A DNA stretch of 64,000 nucleotides from an uncultured Bacteroides sp. (GCA_964453785.1 CAYVRK010000013.1:25370-89369); one strand, 5' to 3'; positions 30,693 through 46,150 are shown, counted from the stretch's first letter. Numbers and translations: made by a program. Notes: generated by a model from the letters alone, not told the origin.

Positions 30693-31684
30693 GACACTCC
30701 CTCCACCAGCAGTTTAAAAGCTTTCAGGGCTGCACCCGACTCCAGTGATTGCCTCGCCCTCTCGATCCCGCTGACCAGCCCCTTGCTTTCATCCATACAA
30801 TAGAGTGCAAAAGCAGCATTGGCAATCACCACATCATTCTGGGCTCTATTCCCTTTGCCTTCGAGTATCTTCAGGAATATCCCTGCTGCTTTCTCTACGG
30901 TTGAACCGCCAAAGATCTGATCCGCAGTTACCCGGTTCAGACCCAGGTCTCCCGGGGAAAGTGTTCTCTCGGTCAGCATGGTAAAGGATTTAAACTGCCC
31001 TGTAAGGGAAATCTCATCATATCCGTCCAGCGAGTGAATAATGCAATACTTCTTGTCCGATTCCTGGTATAGATAGTTGTAGAGCCTCGCCACATCGAGG
31101 CTGAAGACCCCCACCATCTGGTTTTGTGGAAAGGACGGGTTGACCATGGGTCCGAGCATGTTAAAGAATGTTTTGATCCTTAAACTCCTCCGCACCGGAG
31201 CCACGTTCTTCATGGCAGGATTAAAAAGGGGCGCATGCAGAAAACAGATGTTACAGCGGTCCATCTCCCTTTTCAATCTGTCACTGTCACTGGTAAATTT
31301 ATAACCGAAATACTCCAGTACATTGGAAGAGCCGCATGCCGATGAGACACTGTAATTCCCATGTTTGGCTACTTTCTCTCCGGCTCCGGCCACGACAAAG
31401 GAGGTGAGTGTTGAGATATTAAACGTATTCTTCTCATCCCCGCCCGTGCCACATACATCGATGGTATTGAATTCTGAAAGGTCAACGGGTGTACACAGTT
31501 CGAGCAGGGCATCCCGGAATCCGGCGAGTTCTTCCACTGTAATACTCCTCATCAGATAAACCGAAATGAAAGCGGCAATCTCCGCATCATTATAATTTCC
31601 CTGTGCCATGTTTGTAAGGACAAATTTGGCATCCTCTTTTCCCAGGGTCTTATGGTCGAACAGGTACTGTAAGGTCTCTTTCAT
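30689..31684 (-). CDS. trpD: Anthranilate phosphoribosyltransferase
   Basis: 331 aa. Motifs DVCGTGGDEKNTFNIST and KHGN. Confidence 0.95.
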   Translation of the reverse strand: MKETLQYLFDHKTLGKEDAKFVLTNMAQGNYNDAEIAAFISVYLMRSITVEELAGFRDALLELCTPVDLSEFNTIDVCGTGGDEKNTFNISTLTSFVVAGAGEKVAKHGNYSVSSACGSSNVLEYFGYKFTSDSDRLKREMDRCNICFLHAPLFNPAMKNVAPVRRSLRIKTFFNMLGPMVNPSFPQNQMVGVFSLDVARLYNYLYQESDKKYCIIHSLDGYDEISLTGQFKSFTMLTERTLSPGDLGLNRVTADQIFGGSTVEKAAGIFLKILEGKGNRAQNDVVIANAAFALYCMDESKGLVSGIERARQSLESGAALKAFKLLVEGVS

Positions 31685-31688
31685 ACTT

Positions 31689-32282
31689 TTACCTTTTTCC
31701 TTTCACCCAGTTTAATATGATCCTTCCCCCGTATTCAGTCAGCACAGATTCGGGGTGAAACTGAACACCCCTGACATCATACTCCTTGTGCCGGAGAGCC
31801 ATGATGTAACCTTCATCATTTTCCACCGTGACTTCCAATGCCTCCGGTAAAGTCTCCGGTTCCACCACCCAGGAATGATACCTACCGGCATCAAATTCCA
31901 CGGGAACTCCCTCCAGCAGGTAATCCCCGGGAATAATCTGTTTCATCTGCCCTATCACACCGTGGTACACAGTGGAAAGGTTTGCAATGGATCCGCCAAA
32001 AGCTTCGGCAATGGCCTGATGGCCCAGGCATACGCCAAGAATACTTTTCGTGGGACCATACCTCCTGATTAGTTCCAGGGTGATTCCCGCCTCTTCAGGA
32101 ATCCCGGGGCCCGGACTGATGAGAATTTTGTCATAGCCGCCGATCTCTTCCAGGGAAATCCGGTCATTTCTGAAAACATCCACCGGACTTTTAAGCACCC
32201 GTTCGATATACTGGACCAGGTTGTAGGTAAATGAATCGTAGTTATCCAGAACCAATATCTTCATCTGCTTTCTATTTATCAC
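31689..32282 (-). CDS. trpG: Anthranilate synthase component II (glutamine amidotransferase)
   Basis: 197 aa. ILVLDNYDSFTYNLVQY, the catalytic Cys motif GVCLGHQ, and HPES. Confidence 0.95.
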   Translation of the reverse strand: MINRKQMKILVLDNYDSFTYNLVQYIERVLKSPVDVFRNDRISLEEIGGYDKILISPGPGIPEEAGITLELIRRYGPTKSILGVCLGHQAIAEAFGGSIANLSTVYHGVIGQMKQIIPGDYLLEGVPVEFDAGRYHSWVVEPETLPEALEVTVENDEGYIMALRHKEYDVRGVQFHPESVLTEYGGRIILNWVKGKR

Positions 32283-33690
32283 TGTTTATTTTCCGTGCCA
32301 TTTCAATGGCCGATTTCAGGGCTGCCAGTTTGTTGTTTACTTCCTGAAGTTCACCCTCCTCGGTAGATTCAGAAACAATTCCCGCACCAGCCTGATAATA
32401 GAGCACATGATCGCGTGAAAGGAACGAACGGATCATGATGGCATGATTGATATCCCCGTTAAACCGTATAAAACCGATGGTCCCGCCGTAGTAACCCCTC
32501 CTCTTCCCTTCGTATTTATCGATAAGTTCCATGGCCTTATACTTGGGAGCGCCCGATAGGGTACCGGCCGGAAACGACTCGGCCATGATCCTGATGGTAT
32601 TGGCCTCCTCCGGAAGTGTTCCTGAAACCTTGGAGACCATATGGATCACATGTGAATAGAACTGAATCTCACGATAAAACTCAACCGTCACTTTGCTGGT
32701 TGTCCGGCTCAGATCATTCCTTGCCAGATCCACCAGCATCACATGCTCTGCATTTTCCTTGTCATCCGCAGCCAGTTTTTTGGCCAGCTCCTGATCCTCC
32801 CGGTCATTCCCTGTCCTTCTGAAGGTTCCTGCAATGGGATTGATATAGGCTTTCCCTTGCTTGACCTCGATTTGCGCTTCCGGTGAGGAGCCAAACAATT
32901 TGTAACTGCCGTAATCAAAATAGAAGAGGTAGGGAGAGGGATTGATAGAACGCAGTGCCCTGTAAACATTAAATTCATCACCGGTAAAAGACTGGTAGAA
33001 CTGGCGTGAAAGTACGATCTGGAAAACATCGCCCCGAAAACAATGTTCTTTTCCTTTCACAACCATGTGGCGGTACTCTTCATCGGTCAGGTTGGATGAT
33101 TCAGATCCTGTGACCCCAAAAACATAGGTAGCTATATTCCGGTTATGGAGCAGGGATGTCACCGAGTCAATTTCACTCTCCCCTCCGTTTACAATATTCT
33201 CAAACAAAAGCAACTCATTGGTCAGATGGTTGATGGCAAGTACATACCGGAAAAAATTGTACCTGATCTCCGGTATCTCCTCCTTTTCGGGCATGGGAGA
33301 TGTGAACGAAATATCCTCAAAATACTGGACAGCATCATAGGTGGAATAACCAAACACGCCGTCCACCATCATATCCTTCCCGCCGGCAGTGACATCAAAA
33401 GATGATACAAAAGCATTCAACTGATCCACTGCATTATTTTCTTCCGATATGATGGTCTGAAGCGGTTCCTCCCCGGGAAGCATGATCATTGCCATCCCGT
33501 TATGAACCTGGAATTCTGCCAGCGGGTCCATGCAGATAAAGGAGAAGGAGTTCTCCTTGCTGTGATAATCCGAACTTTCAAGGAGCAGCGACCCCGGGTA
33601 AATATCTCTCATTTTCAGGTAAATGCTCACTGGTGTGATGATGTCTGCCAGAATTTTTCTGGATTCGACTCTGACTGGTATTTTCTTCAT
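32272..33690 (-). CDS. trpE: Anthranilate synthase component I
   Basis: The track ORF extends to 33756 through the leader terminator. The ATG at 33690 (MKKIPVRVESRKILADIITPVSIYLK) is the homologous start. Chorismate-binding motifs are GYYGG and GAGIV. Confidence 0.95.
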   Translation of the reverse strand: MKKIPVRVESRKILADIITPVSIYLKMRDIYPGSLLLESSDYHSKENSFSFICMDPLAEFQVHNGMAMIMLPGEEPLQTIISEENNAVDQLNAFVSSFDVTAGGKDMMVDGVFGYSTYDAVQYFEDISFTSPMPEKEEIPEIRYNFFRYVLAINHLTNELLLFENIVNGGESEIDSVTSLLHNRNIATYVFGVTGSESSNLTDEEYRHMVVKGKEHCFRGDVFQIVLSRQFYQSFTGDEFNVYRALRSINPSPYLFYFDYGSYKLFGSSPEAQIEVKQGKAYINPIAGTFRRTGNDREDQELAKKLAADDKENAEHVMLVDLARNDLSRTTSKVTVEFYREIQFYSHVIHMVSKVSGTLPEEANTIRIMAESFPAGTLSGAPKYKAMELIDKYEGKRRGYYGGTIGFIRFNGDINHAIMIRSFLSRDHVLYYQAGAGIVSESTEEGELQEVNNKLAALKSAIEMARKINSDK

Positions 33691-33707
33691 TTCTGTTGTT
33701 TTAAGAC

Positions 33708-33737
33708 AAAAAAAAAAGCTTCCGCCGAAGTGGAAGC
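33708..33737 (-). terminator. Intrinsic terminator (attenuator) 17 nt upstream of the trpE start codon
   Basis: The minus-strand RNA reads GCUUCC-A-C-UUCG-G-C-GGAAGC followed by U10. That is a 6-bp GC-rich stem plus a C-G pair closing a UUCG tetraloop, then GUCUUAAAACAACAGAA and the AUG. Confidence 0.8.
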
Positions 33738-33769
33738 CCTTTATTTTATGATGCACAAAGAGGCAGATC

Positions 33770-33919: not shown

Positions 33920-34687
33920 ATGGACAATAAATACCTTAGGAACGCCGTGCTTTTTTTCACCATCTGGGTGATTGTCATGGTAATCTATTCTTTGTCAGGT
34001 AAAGTAACGGATTTCGAATACCTCTGGAAATTTTTTCTTTTTCCCGGCCTTTTTCTTTCCGGAATTGCACTCCTGGCAACTGGATTTTCACAACTCTTCC
34101 GGGTAAAAAAAGGGATCAACTGGCTCTTTCTGGTTGCAGCAGTTGGCATGGATCAGGGCATCAAAGCGATTCTGTTCTCCCTGGAATGGGAAACCATGTC
34201 CATTCCCCTGATCCCTCCCGTATTCTATATTCAACCCACCCAAAACACACTGGGTTCATACCTGTGGGTGCTGCTTGGCCTCAAGGATGGTTCTCATCTG
34301 CTGAACATCATCCTGTTCAGTATCATCGGAATTGTATTCATTGAGGTGTGGCGGTTTTATGTGAAACGAAAAAGGAACAGTTTCTGGATCAATGGTTTCA
34401 TACACCTGTTTCTGGCGGGGCTTGCAGCCAACCTGATTGATAATGCCTTCTGGGGTGGGTCTCTGGACTACCTGACCATCAAGCCATTCTACACCTTCGA
34501 CCTGAAGGATCTATACATCACCCTTTGTGAGCTCTTCCTGATCACCGAACTGATTGACAATAGCTTGCTAAAACGATTTTTGAAAATGCCCAAAGCGGAC
34601 AGCAAAAGAATCAACAGGGATTTTATCCAATTTGTAAAAAGGGATTTCCGGCTTGGAAAGAAAAATGGTGGTGACAAGAATACCTGA
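33920..34687 (+). CDS. Polytopic membrane protein, divergent signal-peptidase-II (LspA, peptidase A8)-like
   Basis: 255 aa with about 5-6 TM helices. LAGLAANLIDNAFWGGSLDYL...FYTFDLKDLYITL resembles the two Asp-containing LspA motifs (GNLIDR...VVDF...FNxAD). The assignment is by eye only. Confidence 0.5.
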   Translation: MDNKYLRNAVLFFTIWVIVMVIYSLSGKVTDFEYLWKFFLFPGLFLSGIALLATGFSQLFRVKKGINWLFLVAAVGMDQGIKAILFSLEWETMSIPLIPPVFYIQPTQNTLGSYLWVLLGLKDGSHLLNIILFSIIGIVFIEVWRFYVKRKRNSFWINGFIHLFLAGLAANLIDNAFWGGSLDYLTIKPFYTFDLKDLYITLCELFLITELIDNSLLKRFLKMPKADSKRINRDFIQFVKRDFRLGKKNGGDKNT

Positions 34688-34719
34688 ATGTTGGGATGCA
34701 GCATTTGGAATGAAAGCAC

Positions 34720-37716
34720 CTATTCCTCTCCGTTTCCAAGGTCAAACGGAAAAAGTTGCTCCCCCTCTCTGAACTGAATACCCCGCCGCTGTTCCTCAAA
34801 TTTAAAATCCAGGTTGATGATTTTGTTGTCTGTAAACTGGACTTTGTAGCTCCCCCGTTCCAGTCTGAAATTCTCACCAAAAACATTGTAGATACTAACC
34901 TCGTAGGATGTGGCGCGGGGCAAATCAAGAACGAATGTACCAAAACCACTCGACAGGGTAGAAAATGTCTCCCCGTTTTCACCCACTGCAGTCACCCTGA
35001 TACCCTGTGGTGAAACAGTCCCCTCATTGGAATTTGGATCTCTGTCAATGATAATCCTCCCTTTGATTTTATAACTCTCCACAAGAGGAAGATAGTGAAC
35101 CATATCATTGTTGATCTCGATGGTCTGATGATGTCCGTTCAGGAAATAGAGGTTCTCCAGGTTTGAAAGTGGTATAAGCGACAGGTCATAAACGCCATAA
35201 GGGATTCTCTCGTAAAAAATCTCCCCGCGCGGATCTGTAATCATACTAACCTCAACAAAGCCGCTTCTGCTTTCAACATTCTTATCAGGATCCCTGGAAA
35301 TTTGTACCAAAACGTTTGAAATTGGTTTTTCCTCTTCACTTTTAATCCCATCTCCATCCAGGTCGTTGAAACCTATGATGGTTAGATCACCATAACCCAT
35401 CCTGGGTTGTTGAATGTCAAAAGCTTTCCGGACACCAAGGAAAAGATTCACATCCCTGCTTGTCATCCTACCCACATCCACATCCCTTCTGCTTACCCTG
35501 TAAATATTGAAACTGCCATAAAAATCCCAGGTCTTGTGCACATGGATGTTCCCGGTGAGGTTGAAAAGAATGTTTTCCCTCATGGAAGGCATATAGTAGG
35601 AGTAATTCAAAAATGCACTCACGCGAAGAGTCTCTTTGAAGAAATAACGCTCGTAGTATGGCCGTATATGGAAGGCCTGATTCACCAGGGGAGTATTGTT
35701 TACCACCGAGCTGCGATAAACATCGGTTACATCGCCGGAGGTATAGTATGCATTCAACTTAAAAGCCTGATCATAATAGTTGATCCCGACGGTGTAGGTC
35801 CATTGCCAATCCATATTGGACGTTTCATTCACTTCAATACCCCTGTCATACCTGTAGAACATGGTATTGAAACTGGCGTGAGGAGAGATGCTCCGTCCGT
35901 TTTTTAACCTGAAAGAAACCGAACCCAAAATCCCTGGTTGGTAGTTGTAATAACCAGTTTGATAATCCCCGTTAATCACATACATCTTGCGTATGGTTCC
36001 TGAATATCTGGGTCCACCCTGATACACCACCCTGCCCCTGTGAACTGAGAACAGGATACGTGCGTTTTCATTCATGTTCACATTGGGTGGATAAAGGAAA
36101 TTATAGGGATACTTGGTGGAGGTATAATCACTCCGGTAGTACATGGTCTTAAGCAGGAGTTTTTCAGTGATTTTATAATTGCCTGAAAAATTGATCCTGT
36201 TGATCCCGCTGTTCCTGATATAGGTAAACAGGGTATTGGTATTATCAAAGTTGATCAGGAGCCGGTTTCCCCTGTATCTGTAAATGAACTGGTATGCGAA
36301 TCCCAGAACAGTGGTGTCATGTTCTGTGTAGCTGGAGGCTTTGAAGTTGCTCAGGGATGTGGCCGTCTGCAGATGAAAACTGTGTCTCTGATTTAACTGG
36401 TAGTTGCCTCCCAAATGCCATGTGGCATGACTGTACAACTGTTGGGTTGTGGTTTCAAGAGTGACACCCGTATTAACGCCTACATTGCCCAGGTATCCTC
36501 CATAACCTGCAAATCCTCCAATACTTCCGCCATATGGGTTTTGAATCACGTTGAGCAAAAACATGTTTCTGTCGTTGAGCTGGTGGGTGGCACTGATCCC
36601 TCTTCCGGTTAATGTGTGCAACTGTCCCGTACCCAGCCTGTCCCCGATCATTACCATTGTATTCTGATCCATATACCTGATTGAGTAACGCAGCTGCTGG
36701 TAAAGGTCAATCTCCCTGTTCATATCAGCATCGAAATAAAGGTTATAATAACCAAGTGAATAGTATAGTTCCTGGGTTCCGGGAAACAATACCTGGCCAA
36801 ACACCCTTGCCGACATTTTTTTTCTTTGCTGCGACAGCAGGTTATACACTGTAAGCTCAGCATTGAGCGGTGCATTATAAAAAGGCAGCGAGTTGATGAT
36901 TTCACTTTCCAACGGAGTTGCCCTGATTGAGCCGTACTTGGAAGTATTGGACGTGGAAGCGTGTATGTCCAGGGTCGCGGCCCTCCAATTGTTGTTCAGC
37001 GCTTTCTTTTCGGAATAGGAAAGATCATCCCTACGCTGAATCACCAATTTGATGGAAGTATCGGCATACGCGGGAAGGTCCACATAAAGGAAACTATCCG
37101 CCTGAATTTCACTTCGGAATTCCAACAAATCTCCCAGGTCCAGAGAAAGTTTCACCAGTTCATTGGAATTTCCTGAATTGGACAGAGATACATTTACCTC
37201 TCCATAAGGCTTGAAATCAGATATGTAAATCTGGTTTGTACCCAGCCTCATATCCCATTTTGACTTCCTTTGGATGGATACATATGAATTGGCATAGCTG
37301 TATAAATCCTTACCAAACAACTCAGCACCTATCACATATGAGACCCCACCAACGGTGTTTCCAGGAATGGAAACCCTGACAGGTATCATTTTATATCCAC
37401 CAGGTTCAAGATTCAGGGTATCAATTCCCATTCCAATCATGCGCCATGAATCCGGGCAATCAATTCGCACAATTCCGGAAATGCGATTCCTGCCATTATT
37501 CTTGATTTCCAGAACATTAAAATGTGATCCCGGTTTTTCCAACACCACCTCCGGTCGGAGGAATTGCATCGTAAGGAGGCTGTCCGGCGTGGATACTTGT
37601 GCAAGGGATAGTCCAGGCAGACACAACAAAGGAATCATCAGGCCCCACAGGACCATTCCGGGGACACCTTTCTTGGTGTATTTTCTGCCTTGATCCACCT
37701 TCATCATTCGGTACAA
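34720..37716 (-). CDS. Large secreted/outer-membrane protein: N-terminal Ig-like modules, a central Tyr/Asn/Gly-rich putative beta-barrel, and C-terminal beta-sandwich modules. Candidate usher-like component
   Basis: 998 aa. Signal peptide ...LLCLPGLSLAQV. N-terminal CARDB/NEW3-like segments (FNVLEIKNNGRNRISGIVRIDCP...LEPGGYKMIPVRVSIPGN; EVNVSLSNSGNSNELVKLSL). The central ~450 aa are rich in Y/N/G/T with alternating polarity. The C-terminus reads DLDGDGIKSEEEKPISNVLVQISRD...GVYDLSLIP (SdrD-B/CarboxypepD_reg-like). The start could be an internal Met. Confidence 0.75.
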   Translation of the reverse strand: MYRMMKVDQGRKYTKKGVPGMVLWGLMIPLLCLPGLSLAQVSTPDSLLTMQFLRPEVVLEKPGSHFNVLEIKNNGRNRISGIVRIDCPDSWRMIGMGIDTLNLEPGGYKMIPVRVSIPGNTVGGVSYVIGAELFGKDLYSYANSYVSIQRKSKWDMRLGTNQIYISDFKPYGEVNVSLSNSGNSNELVKLSLDLGDLLEFRSEIQADSFLYVDLPAYADTSIKLVIQRRDDLSYSEKKALNNNWRAATLDIHASTSNTSKYGSIRATPLESEIINSLPFYNAPLNAELTVYNLLSQQRKKMSARVFGQVLFPGTQELYYSLGYYNLYFDADMNREIDLYQQLRYSIRYMDQNTMVMIGDRLGTGQLHTLTGRGISATHQLNDRNMFLLNVIQNPYGGSIGGFAGYGGYLGNVGVNTGVTLETTTQQLYSHATWHLGGNYQLNQRHSFHLQTATSLSNFKASSYTEHDTTVLGFAYQFIYRYRGNRLLINFDNTNTLFTYIRNSGINRINFSGNYKITEKLLLKTMYYRSDYTSTKYPYNFLYPPNVNMNENARILFSVHRGRVVYQGGPRYSGTIRKMYVINGDYQTGYYNYQPGILGSVSFRLKNGRSISPHASFNTMFYRYDRGIEVNETSNMDWQWTYTVGINYYDQAFKLNAYYTSGDVTDVYRSSVVNNTPLVNQAFHIRPYYERYFFKETLRVSAFLNYSYYMPSMRENILFNLTGNIHVHKTWDFYGSFNIYRVSRRDVDVGRMTSRDVNLFLGVRKAFDIQQPRMGYGDLTIIGFNDLDGDGIKSEEEKPISNVLVQISRDPDKNVESRSGFVEVSMITDPRGEIFYERIPYGVYDLSLIPLSNLENLYFLNGHHQTIEINNDMVHYLPLVESYKIKGRIIIDRDPNSNEGTVSPQGIRVTAVGENGETFSTLSSGFGTFVLDLPRATSYEVSIYNVFGENFRLERGSYKVQFTDNKIINLDFKFEEQRRGIQFREGEQLFPFDLGNGEE

Positions 37717-37736
37717 TACTCCTGCTGCGATTCTTA

Positions 37737-38324
37737 TCAGAACCCACCCCCTGTGGGCACCAGTTCAAGCTCTATTTCCACAACGTAATAATCGGGTTGT
37801 TCCCCCAAAAGACTTCCATTTCCTCCTGCAGCCACCGGCATCCCGCATTGGTATGATATGGCCAGCTGGTGGACGCTCCAAACCAGGTCATCAAACACTG
37901 CATCCGGATCAGTATATGAACAAAGCAACTCGAATCCGGGAGGAAGATCAATATATCCAGGGCTTGTAAAGCCCGGGCCAAAACCCTGGAAGCTTTCAGC
38001 CTTGATCCGAATCGTATTCAGATCAAGGCTGTTGGCATCACCGGTAATTTCAGTTGCACCGTTAAAAGCCTGTACGTTCAGGTCGAATCCTGTCAGGTTT
38101 CTGCCTGGCTGGGTTGAATCGGCCAGGGTCACACCCAGAATAGTCCCGTTCTCAATTTCTATACCTTCCGAATACTTTTTTAAGGAATTAAAATTAAACG
38201 GGATGTTTCCTCCATAGATCAAAACAAGCCGGGCATAATTCCACTCCTGCGCCACCGTCCCCTGGGAGAATGCAATCAGGAAAACGACCACCCAGAATTT
38301 TGAGACGACGCGGAAAAAACTCAT
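37737..38324 (-). CDS. Secreted subunit B (195 aa), paralog of the 239-aa protein upstream. Candidate minor fibre subunit
   Basis: The ATG at 38324 gives MSFFRVVSKFWVVVFLIAFSQGTVAQ, a signal peptide with no lipobox. The track start at 38369 would lie inside the hairpin at 38359..38387. Motifs shared with the 239-aa protein are GGNIxFxFNSxxxY, N[ST]LDL, CGxPVxAG and a C-terminal YVxxIxxEL strand. Confidence 0.7.
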   Translation of the reverse strand: MSFFRVVSKFWVVVFLIAFSQGTVAQEWNYARLVLIYGGNIPFNFNSLKKYSEGIEIENGTILGVTLADSTQPGRNLTGFDLNVQAFNGATEITGDANSLDLNTIRIKAESFQGFGPGFTSPGYIDLPPGFELLCSYTDPDAVFDDLVWSVHQLAISYQCGMPVAAGGNGSLLGEQPDYYVVEIELELVPTGGGF

Positions 38325-38358
38325 TACAAATTTGAATGATTTTCGATTTTGTAAAACA

Positions 38359-38387
38359 GGAATAGTCAACCTCAGGCTGACTATTCC
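38359..38387 (-). terminator. Perfect 10-bp-stem hairpin between the two paralogous subunit genes, a candidate partial terminator or RNA-stability element
   Basis: GGAATAGTCA-n9-TGACTATTCC. On the minus strand it is followed by TGTTTTAC. It lies 45 nt downstream of the stop of the 239-aa gene. Confidence 0.55.
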
Positions 38388-38431
38388 ATTTATGTATAGA
38401 CCAGTCGAGCTGGCTCCACTGTTACTTTGAT

Positions 38432-39151
38432 TTACAGTACGTTAACTCCAAGTTCGAAGATTACATTGGTCACATACCTGTCCGGTGCCGGACTTGGATC
38501 CTGGTCAAGCAGGCTCACATCAATCATCGGAAGAGGAGCGGCTCCAGCCTCAACCGGTCCGGTTCCACATCTCCATACAATCTGAAATGAGTTGTCCGTA
38601 CCATCTCCTGCGTTGGCATCTCCGCCTACACCAAAGGTATTGTCATCAATGAGCAAGGTGGGATAGTTTTCAAGACCTGCAACCTCCGTTCCATTGACAG
38701 TTGGTGCGCTCCAGAGTTCAGCTGTCAGTGTGGTCCCCTGTCCAACAGCAGTTTCAAAATCATGTGTCCCGTTGGATGTAAGTGTAAATCCTACATTGGC
38801 AAGATCCAGGGTATTGGTGGGATCATCCGTCCCAATGAATGTCAGCTCTTCCGATCCATAATTTAAATCCCACCTGGTGGAAGCAGCCACCGTAAAATCA
38901 GTCACATAAAAAGGATTGGAAGAAGCGGGGTTGGCAGATCCTGAAGTACCGGCATCCCCGGATAGTCCCAGACGATAATCATCAATTGAATTGAACACAA
39001 ACTCAATGTTGCCGCCATTGGTAATGGTCATTCGAAGCACCTGGTTAAGATTGACCGCCACAGGAATAACCTGCCTGTCTTTAACTGCCTGGGAAAAGCC
39101 TGCCACTCCAATGACAAGCATTCCTGCGATAATTATTACTTTTCTCTTCAT
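38432..39151 (-). CDS. Secreted subunit A (239 aa). Candidate major fibre subunit
   Basis: Signal peptide MKRKVIIIAGMLVIGVAGFSQA with no lipobox Cys and no T9SS CTD. The protein is Thr/Gly/Asn/Asp-rich and predicted all-beta. First gene of the minus-strand operon. Paralogous to the 195-aa protein. Confidence 0.75.
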   Translation of the reverse strand: MKRKVIIIAGMLVIGVAGFSQAVKDRQVIPVAVNLNQVLRMTITNGGNIEFVFNSIDDYRLGLSGDAGTSGSANPASSNPFYVTDFTVAASTRWDLNYGSEELTFIGTDDPTNTLDLANVGFTLTSNGTHDFETAVGQGTTLTAELWSAPTVNGTEVAGLENYPTLLIDDNTFGVGGDANAGDGTDNSFQIVWRCGTGPVEAGAAPLPMIDVSLLDQDPSPAPDRYVTNVIFELGVNVL

Positions 39152-39239
39152 AACTTTTCGATTTAATTTATAAAATGGGTTGATAATAATTTGCTAATCG
39201 TATTGGCCCTTGTAATTTTGAACTAAAATATAATAATAA

Positions 39240-40076
39240 ATGAGGACAATTTTGACCAATAAGCAATTCTTTTCAACAAACCATAAGTTTTTGCTGGTTA
39301 ATCTGCTTTTAACATGGGTGATAATTGGAAATGCCCAGGATTTTGAGGTGGCTCCGGTGCTGGTTTCCTTTGATGCAAATCCAGGAGAAAACCAGAACCA
39401 GACCCTCACCATCAGAAACCATGGGAATGAAAAACAAAAATTTGTACTTAACCTTGTGGACTATGAATTAGACGAAGAGGGAGCCAAAAGATCGGTCCCC
39501 GCTGGCACTACAAACCGGACCCTGGCCGACTGGCTGACCACCAATCCCTCTTTTTTTGAATTGAATCCCAATGAATCCAGGGAAGTTGATTTGATCATGA
39601 CCGTTCCTAAAACCGGATTCAACACCCGATGGGGAATGATTCAGGTCCAGGTGGCGAAAGAGCAGGAAGCTTACCAGGCCGACAAACAACTTTCAACCGG
39701 GGTAATCGTAGTGCCCAGGATCGTTGTCCTTGTAAAACAAAGTCCCAGATCGAACCAAAACTTTCAGGGTTCTGTAAAGGAATTAAAAGAAGTCGAAAGC
39801 AGATTGTCAGGGCTGCGAAGTTTTGAAGCGATTCTGGTCAATACCGGAGATAATATATTAGAAGGCAAGGTATTCCTGGCTCTGGCAAACCTGGAAACAG
39901 CCGAAGAAAAGAAATTCAATCCGGTGGCTGTATCCATCTATCCGGACCATCAACGAAAGGTTGTACTTACATTGCCGGAGAATCCCGAACCCGGACAATA
40001 TGCACTTGCATTCCTGTTGGATTATGGTCATCGTGCACCCATTGAAGGAGCCCAGATTTTACTTCATGTGGAATGA
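39240..40076 (+). CDS. Periplasmic PapD/MSP-like (Ig-fold) protein. Candidate fibre chaperone
   Basis: 278 aa with a signal peptide (LLLTWVIIGNAQD). FEVAPVLVSFDANPGENQNQTLTIRNHGNEKQKFVLNLVDY and FFELNPNESREVDLIMTVP follow the pattern of pilus-chaperone N-domains. There is a second beta-rich domain. Transcribed divergently from subunit A. Confidence 0.6.
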   Translation: MRTILTNKQFFSTNHKFLLVNLLLTWVIIGNAQDFEVAPVLVSFDANPGENQNQTLTIRNHGNEKQKFVLNLVDYELDEEGAKRSVPAGTTNRTLADWLTTNPSFFELNPNESREVDLIMTVPKTGFNTRWGMIQVQVAKEQEAYQADKQLSTGVIVVPRIVVLVKQSPRSNQNFQGSVKELKEVESRLSGLRSFEAILVNTGDNILEGKVFLALANLETAEEKKFNPVAVSIYPDHQRKVVLTLPENPEPGQYALAFLLDYGHRAPIEGAQILLHVE

Positions 40077-41266
40077 TGCCGCGTAGCTATATCACAATCA
40101 CACTCCTTCTAGGTAATGCCATTATTTTTTCTCAGGAGGTCTATACCTCCTTCTGGGATATGAATCATAAACTGGTAAGGGAGACATACACATATGCTCT
40201 ATCCGGAACCGACACCATCAGGCAAGGAGTCTACTCCATATTCTACAGAGACGGAACCCTATGGCAGCAAGGTTCTTATGTAAACGGAAGTATGGATGGT
40301 ACCTGGTACGATTACTATGAAGACGGCAGCATCCGGCAGGAATTACCCTATGTCAACGGTGTGTTGCAGGGCACCCTGTTTTATTACTACCCGGACGGAA
40401 TTGTATACCAGGAAGCCGAATACAAGAATGATCTTCTGGATGGTCAGGTACAGATCTACCACCCAAACGGAAAACTCAATGAGAGGGGGGAATACCATAA
40501 AGGACAGCGGAATGGTGTCCTGGTTTGTTATCACGAAAACGGAAATATGCGTCTAAAAAGGAATTACCTGAATGGCCTGGAAAATGGGCCACAGCAGGTT
40601 TACTTTGAGAACGGGAAAATCCGGGAATTATCCAGCTTGGAAAATGGGAAGTACCAGGGCGAGTTCAGAGGATTCTACAAGGAATACGAGGATGGTACCC
40701 TTCAAAAGATCTGTTACTACCAGGATGGCCGGTTGAACGGCCCCTTCAAGGGTTATTACCCTTCCGGTAATCCCATGAATCACTACACGTTTAAAGACGA
40801 CCTGATCGAAGGCGAGTGGACCATGTTTTTTGACTTGCTGACCAATGACTCAGTACCGGTTATACAGGAAACCGGACAATACCATGAAGGAAAAAAAACC
40901 GGCCTTTGGAGGACCTATTACCCCGATGGCCAGCTCTATACCGAAGGAGCCTATGTGAATGAGAAATTTGAAGGTGACTGGATGATCTATCATCCCAACG
41001 AAGAAATAAAACAGAAGGGGAGTTACAGGGATGGATTGGCCACCGGGGAGTTTTTGATGTATTACGAATCGGGAAAACTAAAGAACAGAGGAATATACCT
41101 CGATAACAAAAAAACAGGAGTCTGGACCACCTATTATGAATCCGGAGGAATCATGACCACGATCCCCTTTCTGGATGGATTACGGCACGGAACAGCCCGG
41201 GCATTTGATGAATCAGGAAACCTTGTGGAAACGCTGAACTATGAAAATGGAGAAGAAATCAAGTAA
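40073..41266 (+). CDS. MORN-repeat-variant (YwqK-like) repeat protein with a signal peptide
   Basis: 397 aa. About 14 repeats of the form YYxDGxxxxEgxYxnGxxxGxw (for example YYEDGSIRQELPYVNGVLQGTLFYYYPDGIVYQEAEYKNDLLDG). The start overlaps the upstream stop (ATGATG/TGA). Confidence 0.85.
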   Translation: MMPRSYITITLLLGNAIIFSQEVYTSFWDMNHKLVRETYTYALSGTDTIRQGVYSIFYRDGTLWQQGSYVNGSMDGTWYDYYEDGSIRQELPYVNGVLQGTLFYYYPDGIVYQEAEYKNDLLDGQVQIYHPNGKLNERGEYHKGQRNGVLVCYHENGNMRLKRNYLNGLENGPQQVYFENGKIRELSSLENGKYQGEFRGFYKEYEDGTLQKICYYQDGRLNGPFKGYYPSGNPMNHYTFKDDLIEGEWTMFFDLLTNDSVPVIQETGQYHEGKKTGLWRTYYPDGQLYTEGAYVNEKFEGDWMIYHPNEEIKQKGSYRDGLATGEFLMYYESGKLKNRGIYLDNKKTGVWTTYYESGGIMTTIPFLDGLRHGTARAFDESGNLVETLNYENGEEIK

Positions 41267-41654
41267 ATGGTTTTTTGTGCTGGCAGGTATTCCGCTGCTG
41301 ATGTTTGCATGTGACAGAAACAACGAACCGTTGGACTACAGCTCCATCGCGGGGATCTATACCTGCAATGAATCCTCTGTCCATGCCGGCCTCAGACAGT
41401 ATCCTGTTGAAATTGAAAAGGTACATGATGCAGAAAACAGATACATCATTGTCAATTTTCATAACAAGGGAGAAAATGAATTTCTGTTCTCGGAGCTGAC
41501 CCGGGATACGCTCAGAATAAACAACCAGGCCATATCTGACATTAGTGTAAATGGAAAAGGAATGGTAGCCAGTGATTTCAGATCTATTCAGCTCAACTAT
41601 GTAACCGACGACGGAACAACCATCCTTGATTACTACGCCACTTTTACACGCTAA
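41241..41654 (+). CDS. Small hypothetical lipoprotein
   Basis: 137 aa. Lipobox LLMFACD. Overlaps the MORN gene end by 26 nt. An ATG at 41247 is an alternative start. Confidence 0.6.
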   Translation: MKMEKKSSKWFFVLAGIPLLMFACDRNNEPLDYSSIAGIYTCNESSVHAGLRQYPVEIEKVHDAENRYIIVNFHNKGENEFLFSELTRDTLRINNQAISDISVNGKGMVASDFRSIQLNYVTDDGTTILDYYATFTR

Positions 41655-42148
41655 ATATCACTGGCAGGTGCAAGCGGATATTTCTTGAAAATCTCAGCGG
41701 CCAGTTCTGGCAATTTTGCCGCCCTTGCCTGGGGGTCATAGTCCAGTTCGCCAACAGCGGCGCAATGCCATACATGCTTCTGGGTATGGTTGTCGTACAT
41801 GTCAACCGCAATGGCACGTTCCATATAATTATGCCTGTAGGGGTAATAATAGTAACCCGTCATCGCCAGACGGTGATACACGGTGATCTGCAAGGATACA
41901 TCAGGATTAATTTCCGAAAATTTCAACCCCTTCTGCTCAATTTCCCTGGCAAAGGCCACCTTGATCCGTTCCAGTTCCATATCGGTAATGGTCTTCTTGT
42001 TACCCTCGGTAAATTCCAGGAAATTGTAGGAGGCGTAACTTTCAAAGGACCCGGATTCATCTATGTCGTTATAGATCCTCACCGGTGCCCCACACCCGGC
42101 AAGCAATCCAAGCGAAAACAGAACGAGAAACATGCGATTCCCTTTCAT
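41651..42148 (-). CDS. DUF4136-like lipoprotein
   Basis: The ATG at 42148 gives MKGNRMFLVLFSLGLLAGCG (lipobox). The track extension to 42268 overlaps the SDR gene. Confidence 0.7.
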   Translation of the reverse strand: MKGNRMFLVLFSLGLLAGCGAPVRIYNDIDESGSFESYASYNFLEFTEGNKKTITDMELERIKVAFAREIEQKGLKFSEINPDVSLQITVYHRLAMTGYYYYPYRHNYMERAIAVDMYDNHTQKHVWHCAAVGELDYDPQARAAKLPELAAEIFKKYPLAPASDI

Positions 42149-42188
42149 GGTTGCAGTGTTTGGTTTGACAAACAGAAAGATGCAAATA

Positions 42189-43133
42189 CTATGCCACTGA
42201 TACGATATTGAAGCTGATTCCTGTGAGTTCTTCTGACAATTTCCACAGCTCCCTGGCAGCAATATCATTTACCCGGCCCGGATTGGGTTTTTCAGGACCA
42301 GGCCATCCCCACAGACTCAAAAATCCGGCGGGGCCAAAAAAGTCCCCCTGCCCTACCCCGGGGGCAGTAGCAGCATAGAGTGAGGGGAGAACGCCCATTT
42401 CGCCCGACTGAGCGATGACTCGATTCACCAGATGAAAAGCACCCGCTTTCCATTTTGAACCGACCTGCAGCATGCTGCTGGTCGTAAGTGAAGTATCGGC
42501 ATAACCCGGATGGGCAGCAAGGGCCAGGATATCTGATTTGCTTTCACCCAATCGTCGAGACAACTCCTTTATGAACAAAAGATTGGCCAGCTTGCTCATT
42601 CCATAAGCTCCCCATTTATGGTACTCTTTCTCCCAGTGTATATCACCAAATCTGATCTTGCCAAAATGGTGTGCCATACTGCTTACACTTACAATCCTGG
42701 CCCCTGGAATATCTTGCATACCGGGCCATAAAAGTGCCGTCAGCGCAAAATGACCCAGGTGGTTCACCCCGAATTGCATTTCAAATCCATCCTCAGTCTT
42801 CATATAGGGTGTTGCCATCTGTCCTGCATTGTTGATCAGCAGATGGGGACCACCCTGGGCTGACAGGAATTCCTCAGCAAAAGAGCGGACGGAAGACAAT
42901 TTGGAAAGGTCCAGGTACCGCAATTCGGGAGTTATTTCAGGTTGTTCGTCCAGGATCTTCTGTCTGGCCATATCACCCTTTTCCATGTTCCGGCAGGACA
43001 TGATCACCCTGGCTCCCTTTCTGGCCAGCGCCAGGGAAGTCTGAAATCCCAGACCGCTGTTGGCTCCTGTAACCACCACGGTTTTCCCCCTCTGGGATGG
43101 AATGTTCTCACTGGTCCATTTCATTGCAGGCAA
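42189..43133 (-). CDS. Short-chain dehydrogenase/reductase (classical SDR, retinol-dehydrogenase-like)
   Basis: 314 aa. Cofactor-binding motif VVVTGANSGLGFQT, NNAG, and the catalytic YGMSKLAN (YxxxK). Confidence 0.9.
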   Translation of the reverse strand: MPAMKWTSENIPSQRGKTVVVTGANSGLGFQTSLALARKGARVIMSCRNMEKGDMARQKILDEQPEITPELRYLDLSKLSSVRSFAEEFLSAQGGPHLLINNAGQMATPYMKTEDGFEMQFGVNHLGHFALTALLWPGMQDIPGARIVSVSSMAHHFGKIRFGDIHWEKEYHKWGAYGMSKLANLLFIKELSRRLGESKSDILALAAHPGYADTSLTTSSMLQVGSKWKAGAFHLVNRVIAQSGEMGVLPSLYAATAPGVGQGDFFGPAGFLSLWGWPGPEKPNPGRVNDIAARELWKLSEELTGISFNIVSVA

Positions 43134-44596: not shown

Positions 44597-45151
44597 ATGA
44601 AAATGATCCTGAAAGACCAACATCAGCTGAGGAAGTTAAGAGAAGGGGATATCGGTTCCTTTGAGAGACTTTTTCACATGCATTATCAGGGTATGTTTGG
44701 ATACGCGATGAGCCTCGTCCGTTCGGACGAAACAGCCGAAGAAGTTGTTCAGGATGTGTTCTATAATATATGGAAAAACAGGGAATCCCTGAGAATTACA
44801 CACAGTTGGAAAAGCTACCTGTACCGGGCTGTATATAACAACTCGATGATGGTACTCAGGAAATCCAGGAGGGAGTTCAGGCTGGAGGATGAAATGGTGC
44901 AGGACCTGGAGGGTTCGTCTCAGGATCCTTCCCAGGAGATGCAATTTCAGGAGGTATCAGACCTGGTCTCCCGAACAGTGGAAGGCTTACCTGAAAAGAC
45001 CCGGCAGATATTCCTCATGAACAGGCAGGAAGGTCTGAGATACAAAGAGATCGCCGAGAAGCTTTCCATCTCGGTGAAAACGGTGGAAGCCAACATGGGG
45101 AAAGCGCTCAGGGCTTTAAAAAACAGCCTGCAGAAATATGGTGAAGCATAA
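44597..45151 (+). CDS. ECF RNA polymerase sigma factor (Bacteroidetes FecI-like group)
   Basis: 184 aa. FERLFHMHYQGMFGYAMSLVRSDETAEEVVQDVF, and region 4 GLRYKEIAEKLSISVKTVEANMGKAL. Confidence 0.92.
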   Translation: MKMILKDQHQLRKLREGDIGSFERLFHMHYQGMFGYAMSLVRSDETAEEVVQDVFYNIWKNRESLRITHSWKSYLYRAVYNNSMMVLRKSRREFRLEDEMVQDLEGSSQDPSQEMQFQEVSDLVSRTVEGLPEKTRQIFLMNRQEGLRYKEIAEKLSISVKTVEANMGKALRALKNSLQKYGEA

Positions 45152-45157
45152 TTTGAT

Positions 45158-46150
45158 ATGAAAATGAGCACCCAAACATGGATCTCTCTGGCCCGCTATC
45201 TGGCCGGTGAGATGAGTATGAAAGAGGAGATTGCATTCAGGAATAATCTGGAGAGGAATCCGCAACTACAAACAGAATTAAATCAAATGGAAAAAAGCTG
45301 GAAATATTTTAGTGCAAATCCAACCATAAGGGATTCCGGAAAAGCCTGGGAAAAGCTTTACAGCCGGCTTGAAAGCGACGGGCTGTTGGATGATCAGCAA
45401 TCGGTGTTCAGGAAACGCTTGTATACTCCCAACCTGAAAATTGCTGCAGTCATCCTGTTGATTCTCGCCATCGGGATACCCACTTTATACCTTGAACTTA
45501 CCCGCAACAAGGCGGAGGTCTCTACCCGTTATCAGGTTGCTGAAAAAGGCGTAAGTACTGTTGATTTACCCGATGGAAGCCGGGTATTCCTGAATGAGGG
45601 GGCTGAAATCAGCTATCCCGAAGAATTTGGCCAGGGTCGTTCCGTGAAACTCAGGGGAGAAGCCTTTTTCGAAGTGATGTCGGATCCGGCCAACCCCTTT
45701 ACCGTTTGCTCGGGCAAGGTGGTGGTCTCGGTGCTGGGTACTTCATTCAACGTGAAAGAGGCCGGAGGGAAAGAAACTGTGGAGGTATACGTAGAAACCG
45801 GCAAAGTGAAGGTATCTATGGAAAATTCAGCTGAATTCATTACCCTGCAGCCTGGAGAAGTTGGTCATATCGGACCCGTAAGCCTGTCCAGTTCAGAACA
45901 GTCCGATCCGAATTATATTTCATGGAAAACAAAAGATTTTAAATTTATAGATGAAGACCTTGATCATGTGCTCCGGGAACTGGAGGATTCATACCATGTG
46001 ATCATTCATTCGGAAGATGTTTCCCTGTCAGAACTGAGGATTACTTCCACTTACCGGCAACAATCCATTGATGCCATCCTGGAAACCATCGGAACAGCAT
46101 TCGGGTTAAACGTCAGTAAAAAGGAGGATCAATATTACCTGAATCAATAA
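45158..46150 (+). CDS. FecR-family anti-sigma factor / transmembrane sensor
   Basis: 330 aa. N-terminal anti-sigma segment (LARYLAGEMSMKEEIAF), one TM helix (AAVILLILAIGIP), a FecR domain (DLPDGSRVFLNEGAEISYPEEF...RSVKLRGEAFFEV) and a C-terminal DUF4974-like part. Confidence 0.92.
   Translation: MKMSTQTWISLARYLAGEMSMKEEIAFRNNLERNPQLQTELNQMEKSWKYFSANPTIRDSGKAWEKLYSRLESDGLLDDQQSVFRKRLYTPNLKIAAVILLILAIGIPTLYLELTRNKAEVSTRYQVAEKGVSTVDLPDGSRVFLNEGAEISYPEEFGQGRSVKLRGEAFFEVMSDPANPFTVCSGKVVVSVLGTSFNVKEAGGKETVEVYVETGKVKVSMENSAEFITLQPGEVGHIGPVSLSSSEQSDPNYISWKTKDFKFIDEDLDHVLRELEDSYHVIIHSEDVSLSELRITSTYRQQSIDAILETIGTAFGLNVSKKEDQYYLNQ

What the first reader, a model, noticed from the sequence alone, without database searches (positions are those of the whole stretch)
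34720..41654. Candidate chaperone-usher-like surface-fibre locus built from unrecognised families
Two operons diverge from an 88-bp spacer at 39152-39239.

The minus operon encodes a 239-aa Sec-secreted beta-rich protein, then a perfect 10-bp hairpin, then a 195-aa paralog, then a 998-aa signal-peptide protein. The 998-aa protein has N-terminal Ig-like modules, a central Tyr/Asn/Gly-rich barrel-like region and C-terminal beta-sandwich modules.

The plus operon encodes a 278-aa periplasmic protein whose N-domain follows the PapD/MSP pattern (FEVAPVLVSFDANPGENQNQTLTIRNHGNEKQKFVLNL; FFELNPNESREVDLIMTVP). It is translationally coupled to a MORN-repeat protein with a signal peptide and to a small lipoprotein.

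The gene logic matches chaperone-usher pili: a major subunit first, a stem-loop, a minor subunit, a large outer-membrane protein with periplasmic Ig domains at both ends, and an Ig-fold periplasmic partner. The pili best known in Bacteroidota are instead type V (FimA/Mfa), whose subunits are lipoprotein precursors. The two subunits here have no lipobox and no T9SS CTD. If this reading is correct, it is an undescribed fibre-assembly route for this phylum.
Basis: partly seen in the sequence, partly recalled or inferred. Interest (0 to 1): 0.8.

Follow-up and report, generated by a model that had tools for sequence, protein, structure and literature searches.

The report
Chaperone-usher-like pilus locus in Bacteroidota
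This gene cluster most likely builds a surface fibre by the same strand-swapping logic as E. coli chaperone-usher pili, using protein families no database recognises, and related clusters encode the orphan "TLP-1" fibrils that cryo-EM found in pond water.

Summary

- **Chaperone-like D (278 aa):** it models (pLDDT 88.6) as a two-domain Ig-fold protein. Its best PDB matches are WxLIP and pilus chaperones of every class (CfaA, CsuC, FimC, Caf1M).
- **Usher-like C (998 aa):** it models as two N-terminal Ig domains, a ~26-strand barrel and two C-terminal beta-sandwiches. FimD and PapC ushers are the top PDB matches.
- **Subunits A and B:** A carries a near-invariant N-terminal strand (VIPVAVNL). 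Its paralog B lacks exactly that strand, as a pilus tip subunit would.
- **Conserved terminator hairpin:** one follows the major-subunit gene in 75 of 77 related loci.
- **Co-conservation:** relatives of A occur in at least 139 GTDB species of Bacteroidales and Flavobacteriales, and the block is linked in two different gene orders in the loci examined.
- **Link to TLP-1:** the only PDB hits of the A family are the TLP-1a/b fibrils (CryoSeek, 2024), which are donor-strand-exchange polymers of unknown origin. Metagenome genes 60-75% identical to TLP-1 sit in D-A-B-C operons, one beside a T9SS-tailed protein.

No Pfam or NCBIfam family covers A, B or the barrel of C. I rate this a new class of chaperone-usher-like system.

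The parts
38432..39151 (-). A: major fibre subunit (239 aa, Sec signal peptide of about 22 aa, no lipobox)
   Evidence: ORF. The family has 493 clusters at 90% identity and 252 at 50%. No Pfam hit in 74 members. Its only PDB hits are TLP-1a/b.
39044..39085 (-). Codons 23-36 of A (VKDRQVIPVAVNLN): predicted N-terminal donor strand
   Evidence: Nearly invariant across the family. It aligns to the start of the TLP-1 chain, the region the paper describes as the beta1 donor strand. The paralog B lacks exactly this segment.
38359..38387 (-). 13-bp stem-loop plus U-tract after gene A: intrinsic terminator or attenuator that would set the major:minor subunit ratio
   Evidence: An equivalent hairpin with a lineage-specific stem sequence occurs in 75 of 77 related loci and in 6 of 6 TLP-1-type loci.
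37737..38324 (-). B: minor subunit, a paralog of A without the donor strand; predicted tip or initiator subunit
   Evidence: hhalign A-family vs B-family: probability 96%, E 2e-9, with a 12-residue gap at A's donor strand. B sits next to A in 79 of 82 loci.
34720..37707 (-). C: usher-like outer-membrane protein (two N-terminal Ig-like domains, ~26-strand barrel, two C-terminal prealbumin-like domains)
   Evidence: AF2 model, pLDDT 79.8. Foldseek top hits are FimD and PapC. Pfam finds only SdrD_B, CarboxypepD_reg and NEW3 in the flanking domains. Distant homologs carry a C-terminal OmpA domain.
39152..39239 (.). 88-bp divergent promoter spacer between A and D
   Evidence: Coordinates. No promoter was demonstrated; sigma-70-type scan hits do not exceed the shuffle expectation.
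39240..40076 (+). D: periplasmic two-domain Ig-fold, chaperone-like protein
   Evidence: AF2 model, pLDDT 88.6, with a disordered loop (low pLDDT 147-157) before strand 160-167. Foldseek hits: WxLIP, CfaA, CsuC, DraB, FimC, Caf1M and others. The A1-like and G1-like strands are its most conserved elements. Weak PapD-like-superfamily Pfam hits occur in up to 59 of 60 members.
40073..41266 (+). E: secreted MORN_2-repeat protein, start overlapping D's stop codon (ATGA); conserved accessory of unknown role
   Evidence: Pfam MORN_2 with 12 repeats. ATGA overlap. Adjacent to D in most of the 82 loci (54 E hits against 57 D hits). Absent from TLP-1-type loci.
41241..41654 (+). F: small lipoprotein-like accessory (LMFAC lipobox), found in Bacteroidales only
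   Evidence: Present in 34 of 82 loci and in none of the Flavobacteriales loci.

Best explanation
The locus encodes a non-canonical chaperone-usher-type pilus.

**Proposed pathway (all steps are inferred unless marked otherwise)**
1. A and B are exported by Sec.
2. In the periplasm, the two-Ig-domain protein D caps each subunit. It would insert its conserved G1-like strand (PRIVVLVKQ, residues 159-167) into the groove left by the subunit's missing strand.
3. D-subunit complexes dock on the periplasmic Ig-like domains of C, a ~26-strand outer-membrane barrel.
4. B has a groove but no donor strand. It would enter first and end up at the distal tip.
5. Each incoming A then displaces D from the previous subunit by inserting its own N-terminal strand (VIPVAVNL). 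This is donor-strand exchange, and it grows the fibre from the base through C.
6. The terminator hairpin after gene A would keep A in large excess over B and C.
7. E (periplasmic MORN-repeat protein) and F (lipoprotein) are lineage-variable accessories of unknown role.

**What is shown by computation**
- The folds of C and D.
- The A/B paralogy with loss of the strand in B.
- The synteny and the conserved hairpin.
- Homology of A, C and D to the components of loci that encode TLP-1-type proteins.

**What is shown by experiment elsewhere**
- TLP-1 fibrils polymerise by donor-strand exchange.

**What is inferred**
- That D donates a strand.
- That C is the secretion pore.
- The order of assembly.
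- That A's fibre resembles TLP-1.
For: **D**
- AF2 pLDDT 88.6, two beta-sandwich domains.
- Full-length Foldseek hits: WxLIP 4e-12, CfaA 1.8e-10, CsuC 4.6e-9, DraB, FimC, CupB2, Caf1M, YadV, EcpB and FaeE, with target-normalised TM 0.5-0.6.
- Its most conserved elements are the A1-like strand (3.90 bits) and the G1-like strand (3.98 bits), against 2.95 bits overall.
- Weak PapD-like-superfamily Pfam hits: Cep192_D6 in 59/60 members, WxLIP_PGBD in 44/60, ASH in 39/60, MSP in 31/60.

**C**
- Model shows two Ig domains, ~26 strands and two beta-sandwiches.
- FimD (2.6e-11) and PapC rank above LptD and TonB-dependent transporters.
- Distant homologs end in an OmpA peptidoglycan-binding domain. This places the C-terminus in the periplasm, as in ushers.

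**A and B**
- hhalign probability 96%; B lacks A's 12-residue N-terminal strand.
- A's conservation peaks at the N-terminal strand, beta2 and the C-terminal strand.

**Hairpin**
-.

**Synteny**
- 139 GTDB species carry a relative of A.
- A-B-C is colinear. D-E lies either divergent upstream of A or convergent downstream of C.

**TLP-1 link**
- The only PDB hits of the A profile are 9ikk and 9ikj, E 0.0013. A single family member also hits them at E 0.0075.
- Metagenome genes 60-75% identical to the TLP-1 fragment are hit by the A HMM (E as low as 5e-12).
- They are flanked by D-like ORFs (E as low as 5e-36) and C-like ORFs (E as low as 2e-54).
- A6 profile vs the L108 TLP-like protein: hhalign 97.3%, E 2.4e-11.
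- D vs the L108 D-like protein: BLASTP 5e-15 over the full length.
- TLP-1 is a donor-strand-exchange fibril (PMC11494351).
Against: - No sequence-level homology to PapD_N, PapD_C or Usher families appears in Pfam. hhalign against E. coli chaperones and ushers gave 1-2% probability. That test also failed on the genuine EcpB and EcpC, so it is insensitive.
- C shows about 26 strands and no plug domain inserted in the barrel. pTM is only 0.54 and Foldseek TM-scores are low (0.18-0.33).
- D's best structural hit is WxLIP, which is not a pilus chaperone.
- D has no Arg in the A1-like strand that would correspond to PapD Arg8.
- I could not model A, so its incomplete Ig fold is not shown.
- A and TLP-1 align only over the N-terminal ~90 residues. 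A C-terminal-only profile and the B profile do not retrieve TLP-1.
- Some divergent loci (L092, L096, L104, L070, L073) have A-B-C with no D nearby.
- TLP-1's n+4 donor geometry implies four parallel donor-strand-linked strands. A single usher pore does not obviously explain this.
Confidence: 0.78

Rival explanations
1. A polymerises by donor-strand exchange without a chaperone-usher cycle, as TasA, archaeal threads and cannulae do. In this reading C is only an export pore or anchor. D is a WxLIP-like adaptor that tethers the fibre or its subunits to the envelope rather than a transient chaperone.
For: - WxLIP is D's top Foldseek hit, and WxLIP_PGBD is a recurrent weak Pfam hit.
- Some loci have A-B-C with no D nearby.
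- C lacks the usher plug and has no Usher-family signal.
Against: - D has a Sec signal but no membrane anchor. It matches every class of periplasmic pilus chaperone nearly as well as WxLIP.
- D's conservation is concentrated on the two edge strands that bind subunits in true chaperones.
- D stays linked to A-B-C through gene-order rearrangements and in TLP-1-type loci.
- A diderm must keep polymerisation-prone subunits capped while they cross the periplasm (established knowledge of chaperone-usher systems).
Confidence: 0.12
2. The locus is not a fibre system. C is a large-substrate outer-membrane channel (LptD- or TonB-receptor-like), and A, B, D and E are periplasmic or surface binding partners.
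For: LptD and TonB-dependent transporters also appear among C's Foldseek hits, with similar TM-scores. There is no direct evidence here that A forms filaments.
Against: - The A family is homologous to the TLP-1 filament protomer, and TLP-1-type loci have the same D-A-B-C makeup.
- The A/B pair, with and without the N-terminal strand, plus the attenuator hairpin after A, fits a polymer with a cap.
- No TonB box, Plug or LptD family signal was found.
Confidence: 0.05
3. The locus is a divergent type V (FimA/Mfa) pilus or a T9SS-secreted adhesin system, the fibre routes already known in Bacteroidota.
For: The phylum fits. Type V pili also use strand exchange.
Against: - A and B have SPase I-type signal peptides and no lipobox cysteine.
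- There is no FimA/Mfa family hit and no Por_Secre_tail hit.
- Type V pili use neither a PapD-like chaperone nor a large dedicated barrel.
Confidence: 0.02

Closest known systems
TLP-1a/b fibrils (PDB 9IKJ/9IKK; CryoSeek, PMC11494351)
   Same: - The A family shares the signal-peptide-cleaved N-terminus, the donor strand and the beta2 motif (V.V..L..iL.L....i.FvF..i.eY..G).
- Genes 60-75% identical to TLP-1 lie in D-A-B-C operons with a terminator hairpin after the subunit gene.
- One such contig carries a T9SS-tailed protein, which points to Bacteroidota.
   Different: - Only the first ~90 residues of A align; the heads are not alignable.
- TLP-1-type loci are co-directional (D, A, B, C on one strand) and lack E and F.
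- Whether A's fibre has TLP-1's n+4, 8-nm tubular geometry is unknown.
Archaic (Csu, CupE) and alternate (CFA/I, class 5) chaperone-usher pili
   Same: - The gene logic matches: major subunit, minor subunit, usher, chaperone.
- D's fold matches CsuC and CfaA over both domains.
- C has the usher-style layout of barrel plus periplasmic beta-sandwich domains.
- The tip-type subunit lacks an N-terminal extension.
   Different: - No Pfam PapD_N, PapD_C, Usher, Fimbrial or SCPU signal.
- About 26 strands and no mid-barrel plug.
- Two N-terminal Ig domains instead of one NTD.
- An additional MORN-repeat protein.
- The phylum is Bacteroidota.
Classical chaperone-usher pili (Fim, Pap)
   Same: - FimD and PapC are C's top PDB matches. 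FimC, YadV, Caf1M and FaeE match D.
- A terminator after the major-subunit gene fits the stoichiometric control I recall for pap and fim. That comparison is from memory and was not tested here.
   Different: - hhalign gives 1-2% probability against E. coli chaperone and usher profiles.
- No counterpart of Arg8 in the A1-like strand.
- The tip subunit B has a single domain, not a two-domain adhesin.
WxL / WxLIP surface-protein clusters of Firmicutes
   Same: WxLIP is D's best structural match (E 4e-12). WxLIP_PGBD gives weak Pfam hits in 44 of 60 family members.
   Different: - A and B have no WxL domain.
- D has no C-terminal membrane anchor.
- The host is a diderm and the locus has a dedicated outer-membrane barrel.
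Type V pili (FimA/Mfa) of Bacteroidota
   Same: Same phylum, and polymerisation by strand exchange.
   Different: Type V subunits are lipoprotein precursors matured by proteolysis, with no PapD-like chaperone or usher. A and B have no lipobox and no FimA/Mfa family hit.

Membership tests
Chaperone-usher pathway (any class) | Periplasmic chaperone with two Ig-like domains (PapD fold) | tested here: met
   AF2 model of D, pLDDT 88.6. Full-length Foldseek hits to CfaA, CsuC, DraB, FimC, Caf1M, EcpB and FaeE.
Chaperone-usher pathway (any class) | Chaperone belongs to Pfam PapD_N / PapD_C | tested here: not met
   No PapD_N or PapD_C hit at E<=1 for D itself, and neither is among the 25 families most often hit by the 60 family members. 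Only sister families of the PapD-like superfamily appear. hhalign against 9 E. coli chaperones gave 1.8%, but the EcpB control also failed.
Chaperone-usher pathway (any class) | Conserved basic residues in the chaperone cleft that anchor the subunit carboxylate (PapD Arg8/Lys112) | tested here: inconclusive
   R160 is invariant at the start of the G1-like strand, and position 166 is Lys in the family consensus. There is no Arg in the A1-like strand.
Chaperone-usher pathway (any class) | Outer-membrane usher: large barrel with periplasmic N-terminal and C-terminal beta-sandwich domains | tested here: met
   AF2 model. FimD and PapC are the top Foldseek hits. OmpA fusions place the C-terminus in the periplasm.
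Chaperone-usher pathway (any class) | 24-strand barrel with a plug domain inserted between strands 6 and 7; Pfam Usher family | tested here: not met
   DSSP shows about 26 consecutive strands with only short connections and no inserted domain. No Usher, PapC_N or PapC_C hit in 33 members.
Chaperone-usher pathway (any class) | Subunits with an incomplete Ig fold, completed in trans by an N-terminal extension | tested here: inconclusive
   Supported indirectly. The N-terminal strand is the most conserved segment, B lacks it, and it aligns to the TLP-1 donor strand.
Chaperone-usher pathway (any class) | Tip or initiator subunit lacking the N-terminal extension | tested here: met
   B's mature N-terminus starts 6 residues before the beta2 motif. 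A 12-residue gap lies opposite A's VKDRQVIPVAVNL.
Chaperone-usher pathway (any class) | Subunit, chaperone and usher genes clustered and co-inherited | tested here: met
   In 82 loci: A 82, B 79, C 74, D 57, E 54, with many loci cut by contig ends. Two arrangements occur. The block is also seen in L001 and L002 with unrelated flanks.
TLP-1 fibril protomer family | N-terminal donor strand plus beta2 sequence motif at the mature N-terminus | tested here: met
   Profile vs PDB, E 0.0013, with TLP-1a/b the only two hits. hhalign against a real TLP-type protein gave 97.3%, E 2.4e-11. The mature N-termini are in register within one residue.
TLP-1 fibril protomer family | Same head-domain fold and the n+4 helical assembly | not tested
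Type V pili (FimA/Mfa) | Lipoprotein precursor (lipobox Cys) and FimA/Mfa family fold | tested here: not met
   No lipobox in A or B. No Pfam or NCBIfam hit.
T9SS cargo | C-terminal sorting domain (Por_Secre_tail / TIGR04183) | tested here: not met
   No hit in A, B or C at E<=1. The same search detects the domain in a neighbour of the TLP-type locus.
WxL cluster | WxL-domain proteins plus a membrane-anchored DUF916/DUF3324 protein | tested here: not met
   D resembles WxLIP in fold but scores below the Pfam cut-off. A and B have no WxL domain hit.

The most novel reading that the evidence does not exclude
Bacteroidota carry a previously unrecognised, widespread class of chaperone-usher machinery, with a plug-less ~26-strand usher, a PapD-superfamily chaperone outside PapD_N, and often a MORN-repeat partner. 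Its products include the TLP-1 tubules. These are built from four parallel donor-strand-linked protofilaments (n+4 donor), which would need a mode of usher-mediated assembly, such as several cooperating ushers or post-export lateral association, that has no precedent in known chaperone-usher pili.
Probability: 0.4. Interest if true: 0.9.

Novelty: new variant of a known kind. Interest (0 to 1): 0.82.

Why it matters
**It points to the source of an orphan structure.** The CryoSeek authors solved TLP-1a/b at 3.2-3.5 A. They could not find the gene, the organism or the assembly route by metagenomics or mass spectrometry (PMC11494351). The loci found here offer candidates for all three: Bacteroidota, D-A-B-C operons, and real sequences to refit into the maps.

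**It extends chaperone-usher-type assembly to a new phylum.** In Bacteroidota, the full-text searches run here found only type V pili and T9SS adhesins described, and no chaperone-usher system.

**It defines four new protein families.** These are the subunit, the tip subunit, the usher-like barrel and the chaperone-like protein. They occur in at least 139 species, so many "hypothetical proteins" in freshwater, sediment and wastewater Bacteroidales and Flavobacteriales could be annotated.

**It poses a testable mechanistic question.** A plug-less, larger barrel would have to be gated somehow, and a four-stranded donor-strand-exchange tubule would have to be assembled somehow.

Tried and rejected
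- **Sequence searches of PDB with C and D.** Single sequences and the D profile found nothing. Only fold comparison was informative.
- **A alone against PDB.** phmmer gave only a spurious hit.
- **Independent confirmation of the TLP-1 link.** A C-terminal-only profile of the A family and a B-family profile did not retrieve TLP-1. The link rests on the N-terminal ~90 residues plus the operon context.
- **hhalign against E. coli families.** The D family against 9 E. coli chaperones and the C family against 6 ushers gave 1-2% probability. The positive controls EcpB and EcpC also failed, so the test cannot settle remote homology.
- **Locating UniProt A0A2M8AA21.** This is the CryoSeek authors' best AlphaFold-database match. 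Two cluster look-ups returned no accessions, and the paper's supplement is not held.
- **Other libraries.** PADLOC gave one sub-threshold hit for E (Cas7d, E 0.0077) and nothing for the other five proteins. NCBIfam gave nothing significant, apart from a sub-threshold LIC20035 adhesin-family hit for E.
- **Literature.** Searches for chaperone-usher systems in Bacteroidota, and for follow-ups that identify TLP-1, found none.
- **Rejected readings.** Type V pili, T9SS cargo and WxL-cluster membership each lack a defining feature.

Full report
**Observation**

The six ORFs, the 88-bp divergent spacer, the ATGA overlap between D and E, and the 26-nt E/F overlap are all as described.

The stem-loop between A and B is a 13-pair hairpin at 38359-38387 (-) followed by UGUUUU. 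Its fold z-score is -5.0, and it is the strongest terminator-like site in 34000-42500.

Pfam and NCBIfam recognise only the MORN_2 repeats of E and, weakly, generic beta-sandwich domains at the ends of C and in D. A, B, F and the central part of C match nothing. Scanning whole families member by member gives the same picture:
- The A family has no recurrent hit in 74 members.
- The C family hits only SdrD_B, CarboxypepD_reg and NEW3 domains.
- The D family gives consistent sub-threshold hits to the PapD-like superfamily: Cep192_D6 in 59/60 members, WxLIP_PGBD in 44/60, OCRL ASH in 39/60 and MSP in 31/60. PapD_N is not among them.

**The large protein C**

I modelled C with a 33-sequence alignment. 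The AF2 model has pLDDT 79.8 and pTM 0.54. It shows four parts:
- a signal helix;
- two Ig-like domains (about residues 48-148 and 154-268);
- about 26 consecutive long beta-strands (284-766) joined by short loops;
- two C-terminal beta-sandwiches (775-975).

Against the PDB, the best matches are the ushers FimD (2.6e-11, 1.1e-10) and PapC (1.5e-8). LptD and TonB-dependent receptors rank below them. TM-scores are low (0.18-0.33), as expected for a multi-domain protein.

No plug domain is inserted in the barrel. Distant homologs (P0057 and the C-like proteins of L092 and L096) end in an OmpA peptidoglycan-binding domain. This places the C-terminal domains in the periplasm, which is the usher topology.

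**The 278-aa protein D**

The AF2 model has pLDDT 88.6 and two beta-sandwich domains. A loop (residues 140-158, pLDDT below 50 at 147-157) precedes strand 160-167, RIVVLVKQ.

The top Foldseek PDB hit is WxLIP of Enterococcus faecium (4e-12). Full-length two-domain matches to pilus chaperones of every class follow directly: CfaA, CsuC, DraB, FimC, CupB2, Caf1M, YadV, EcpB and FaeE. Their E-values run from 1.8e-10 to 4e-7, with target-normalised TM 0.5-0.6.

The most conserved elements of D are the first strand after the signal peptide (3.90 bits) and the strand after the disordered loop (3.98 bits), against 2.95 bits overall. In true chaperones these positions are the A1 and G1 strands that hold the subunit.

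**The subunits A and B**

A's family is large: 493 clusters at 90% identity and 252 at 50%. It is unusually conserved. A stays about 60-65% identical in loci where C has fallen to 27%.

Conservation in A peaks in three places:
- the mature N-terminus (VKDRQVIPVAVNLN);
- the following GGNIEFVFN strand;
- the C-terminal DRYVTNVIFEL strand.

Profile comparison shows B is a full-length paralog of A (96%, E 2e-9). It has one clean 12-residue deletion that removes A's N-terminal strand. A subunit that can accept a strand but cannot donate one is what sits at the tip of chaperone-usher pili.

**Context in other genomes**

Relatives of A were found in 139 GTDB species genomes. All of the 80 listed are MAGs. 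They belong to Bacteroidales (Paludibacter and others) and Flavobacteriales (Crocinitomix, Cryomorphaceae, Putridiphycobacter).

A-B-C is colinear wherever the contig allows. D-E lies either divergently upstream of A or, in Paludibacter-type genomes, convergently downstream of C. F is present only in Bacteroidales. Flanking genes differ between lineages.

A strong hairpin follows the A gene in 75 of 77 loci, and the stem sequences differ between lineages.

A few divergent loci have A-B-C with no D nearby.

**Link to TLP-1**

The only PDB sequences hit by an A-family profile are 9IKK_A and 9IKJ_A. The E-value was 0.18 with a narrow profile and 0.0013 with a 74-sequence profile. One family member alone reaches E 0.0075.

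These entries are TLP-1a/b, 8-nm fibrils found by cryo-EM in Tsinghua Lotus Pond water. In them the N-terminal strand of protomer n+4 completes the Ig-like fold of protomer n. The authors could not identify the gene, the organism or the assembly route. Their best AlphaFold-database match was a Flavobacteriales protein (PMC11494351). Later CryoSeek papers add nothing on this point.

I searched JGI metagenomes with the 62-residue TLP-1 fragment and recovered 22 loci encoding proteins 60-75% identical to it. HMMs built from the 82 loci above hit these loci as follows:
- the TLP-like ORF, with the A HMM, E as low as 5e-12;
- a ~1180-aa ORF downstream, with the C HMM, E as low as 2e-54;
- a ~300-aa ORF upstream, with the D HMM, E as low as 5e-36;
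- weakly, a B-like ORF between the TLP-like and C-like ORFs.

A terminator hairpin again follows the subunit gene.

Direct comparisons with L108 support the same relationship:

| Comparison | Method | Result |
|---|---|---|
| A vs L108 TLP-like protein | BLASTP | E 2e-7 |
| A6 profile vs L108 TLP-like protein | hhalign | 97.3%, E 2.4e-11, N-terminal ~85 columns only |
| D vs L108 D-like protein | BLASTP | E 5e-15 over the full length |
| C vs L108 C-like protein | BLASTP | E 5e-12 and 1e-8 for the terminal domains |

The L108 contig also encodes a protein with a T9SS sorting domain scoring above the Pfam cut-off, which indicates a Bacteroidota origin.

**Interpretation**

The locus is best read as a new class of chaperone-usher-like pilus system. 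In this reading A is the major subunit that polymerises by donor-strand exchange, and B is the strand-less tip subunit. D is the periplasmic chaperone, C the outer-membrane assembly pore, and the hairpin the device that sets subunit stoichiometry. E and F are lineage-variable accessories.

It is not a member of the Pfam chaperone or usher families. Its usher-like protein departs from the canonical architecture, with more strands, no inserted plug and two N-terminal domains. hhalign against E. coli families was negative, but it was also negative for the genuine Ecp proteins, so it is uninformative.

Several points are unproven:
- the incomplete fold of A;
- strand donation by D;
- passage of the fibre through C;
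- whether A's fibre shares TLP-1's four-stranded geometry.

The main rival reading keeps the donor-strand-exchange fibre but gives D a WxLIP-like adaptor role.

**Novelty**

Full-text searches found no description of such loci, and none of chaperone-usher pili in Bacteroidota. I rate this a new variant of a known kind. Its added value is that it supplies the likely genetic origin of an experimentally solved orphan fibril.

Noticed in passing
window 33920-34687 (+): A 255-aa protein with a signal peptidase II domain (Peptidase_A8, E 1.2e-15) lies convergent to C. By my recollection it is longer than typical LspA. It lies next to, or within about 2 kb of, the C gene in 13 closely related loci at 63-92% identity.
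   Followed up: partly
window 41651-42268 (-): A DUF4136 protein lies convergent to F. It travels with the locus in 12 close relatives only, so this is probably neighbourhood synteny rather than function.
   Followed up: partly
window 29901-33756 (-): Four consecutive ORFs whose translations look like the tryptophan biosynthesis genes trpE, trpG, trpD and trpC. This is read from the sequences and was not checked with a family search.
   Followed up: no
window 44597-46150 (+): An adjacent pair whose translations look like an ECF sigma factor and a FecR-type anti-sigma factor. This is read and was not checked.
   Followed up: no
L092 9372-13001; L096 1947-5468: In divergent branches of the family, the usher-like protein is about 1170-1210 aa and ends in an OmpA peptidoglycan-binding domain. 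No D or E homolog lies within the DNA held for these loci.
   Followed up: partly
L094 1746-6436: In a marine locus, three genes lie between the D/E-like genes and A-B-C: a methyltransferase, a PMT_2/TPR glycosyltransferase-like protein and a 732-aa MORN_2 protein. This hints that some of these fibres may be glycosylated.
   Followed up: no
L108 13076-14668 and 6862-7461: In a TLP-1-type locus, a 530-aa protein with an N-terminal hydrophobic, signal-like stretch and four FKBP-type prolyl isomerase domains starts 7 nt after the usher-like gene. A Uma2-family nuclease gene sits between the chaperone-like gene and the subunit gene.
   Followed up: no
B family C-termini (e.g. window 37740-37760, -): B-family proteins end in a conserved motif...YY.VEIE.ELVPTGPGF in Bacteroidales and ...IPDF in Flavobacteriales. 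Both finish on a terminal Phe. The A family has no such ending. The meaning is unknown.
   Followed up: no
L070, L073, L104: These loci have several kb of flank on both sides of A-B-C but no detectable D homolog. The chaperone-like gene may be encoded elsewhere in these genomes or may be dispensable.
   Followed up: no
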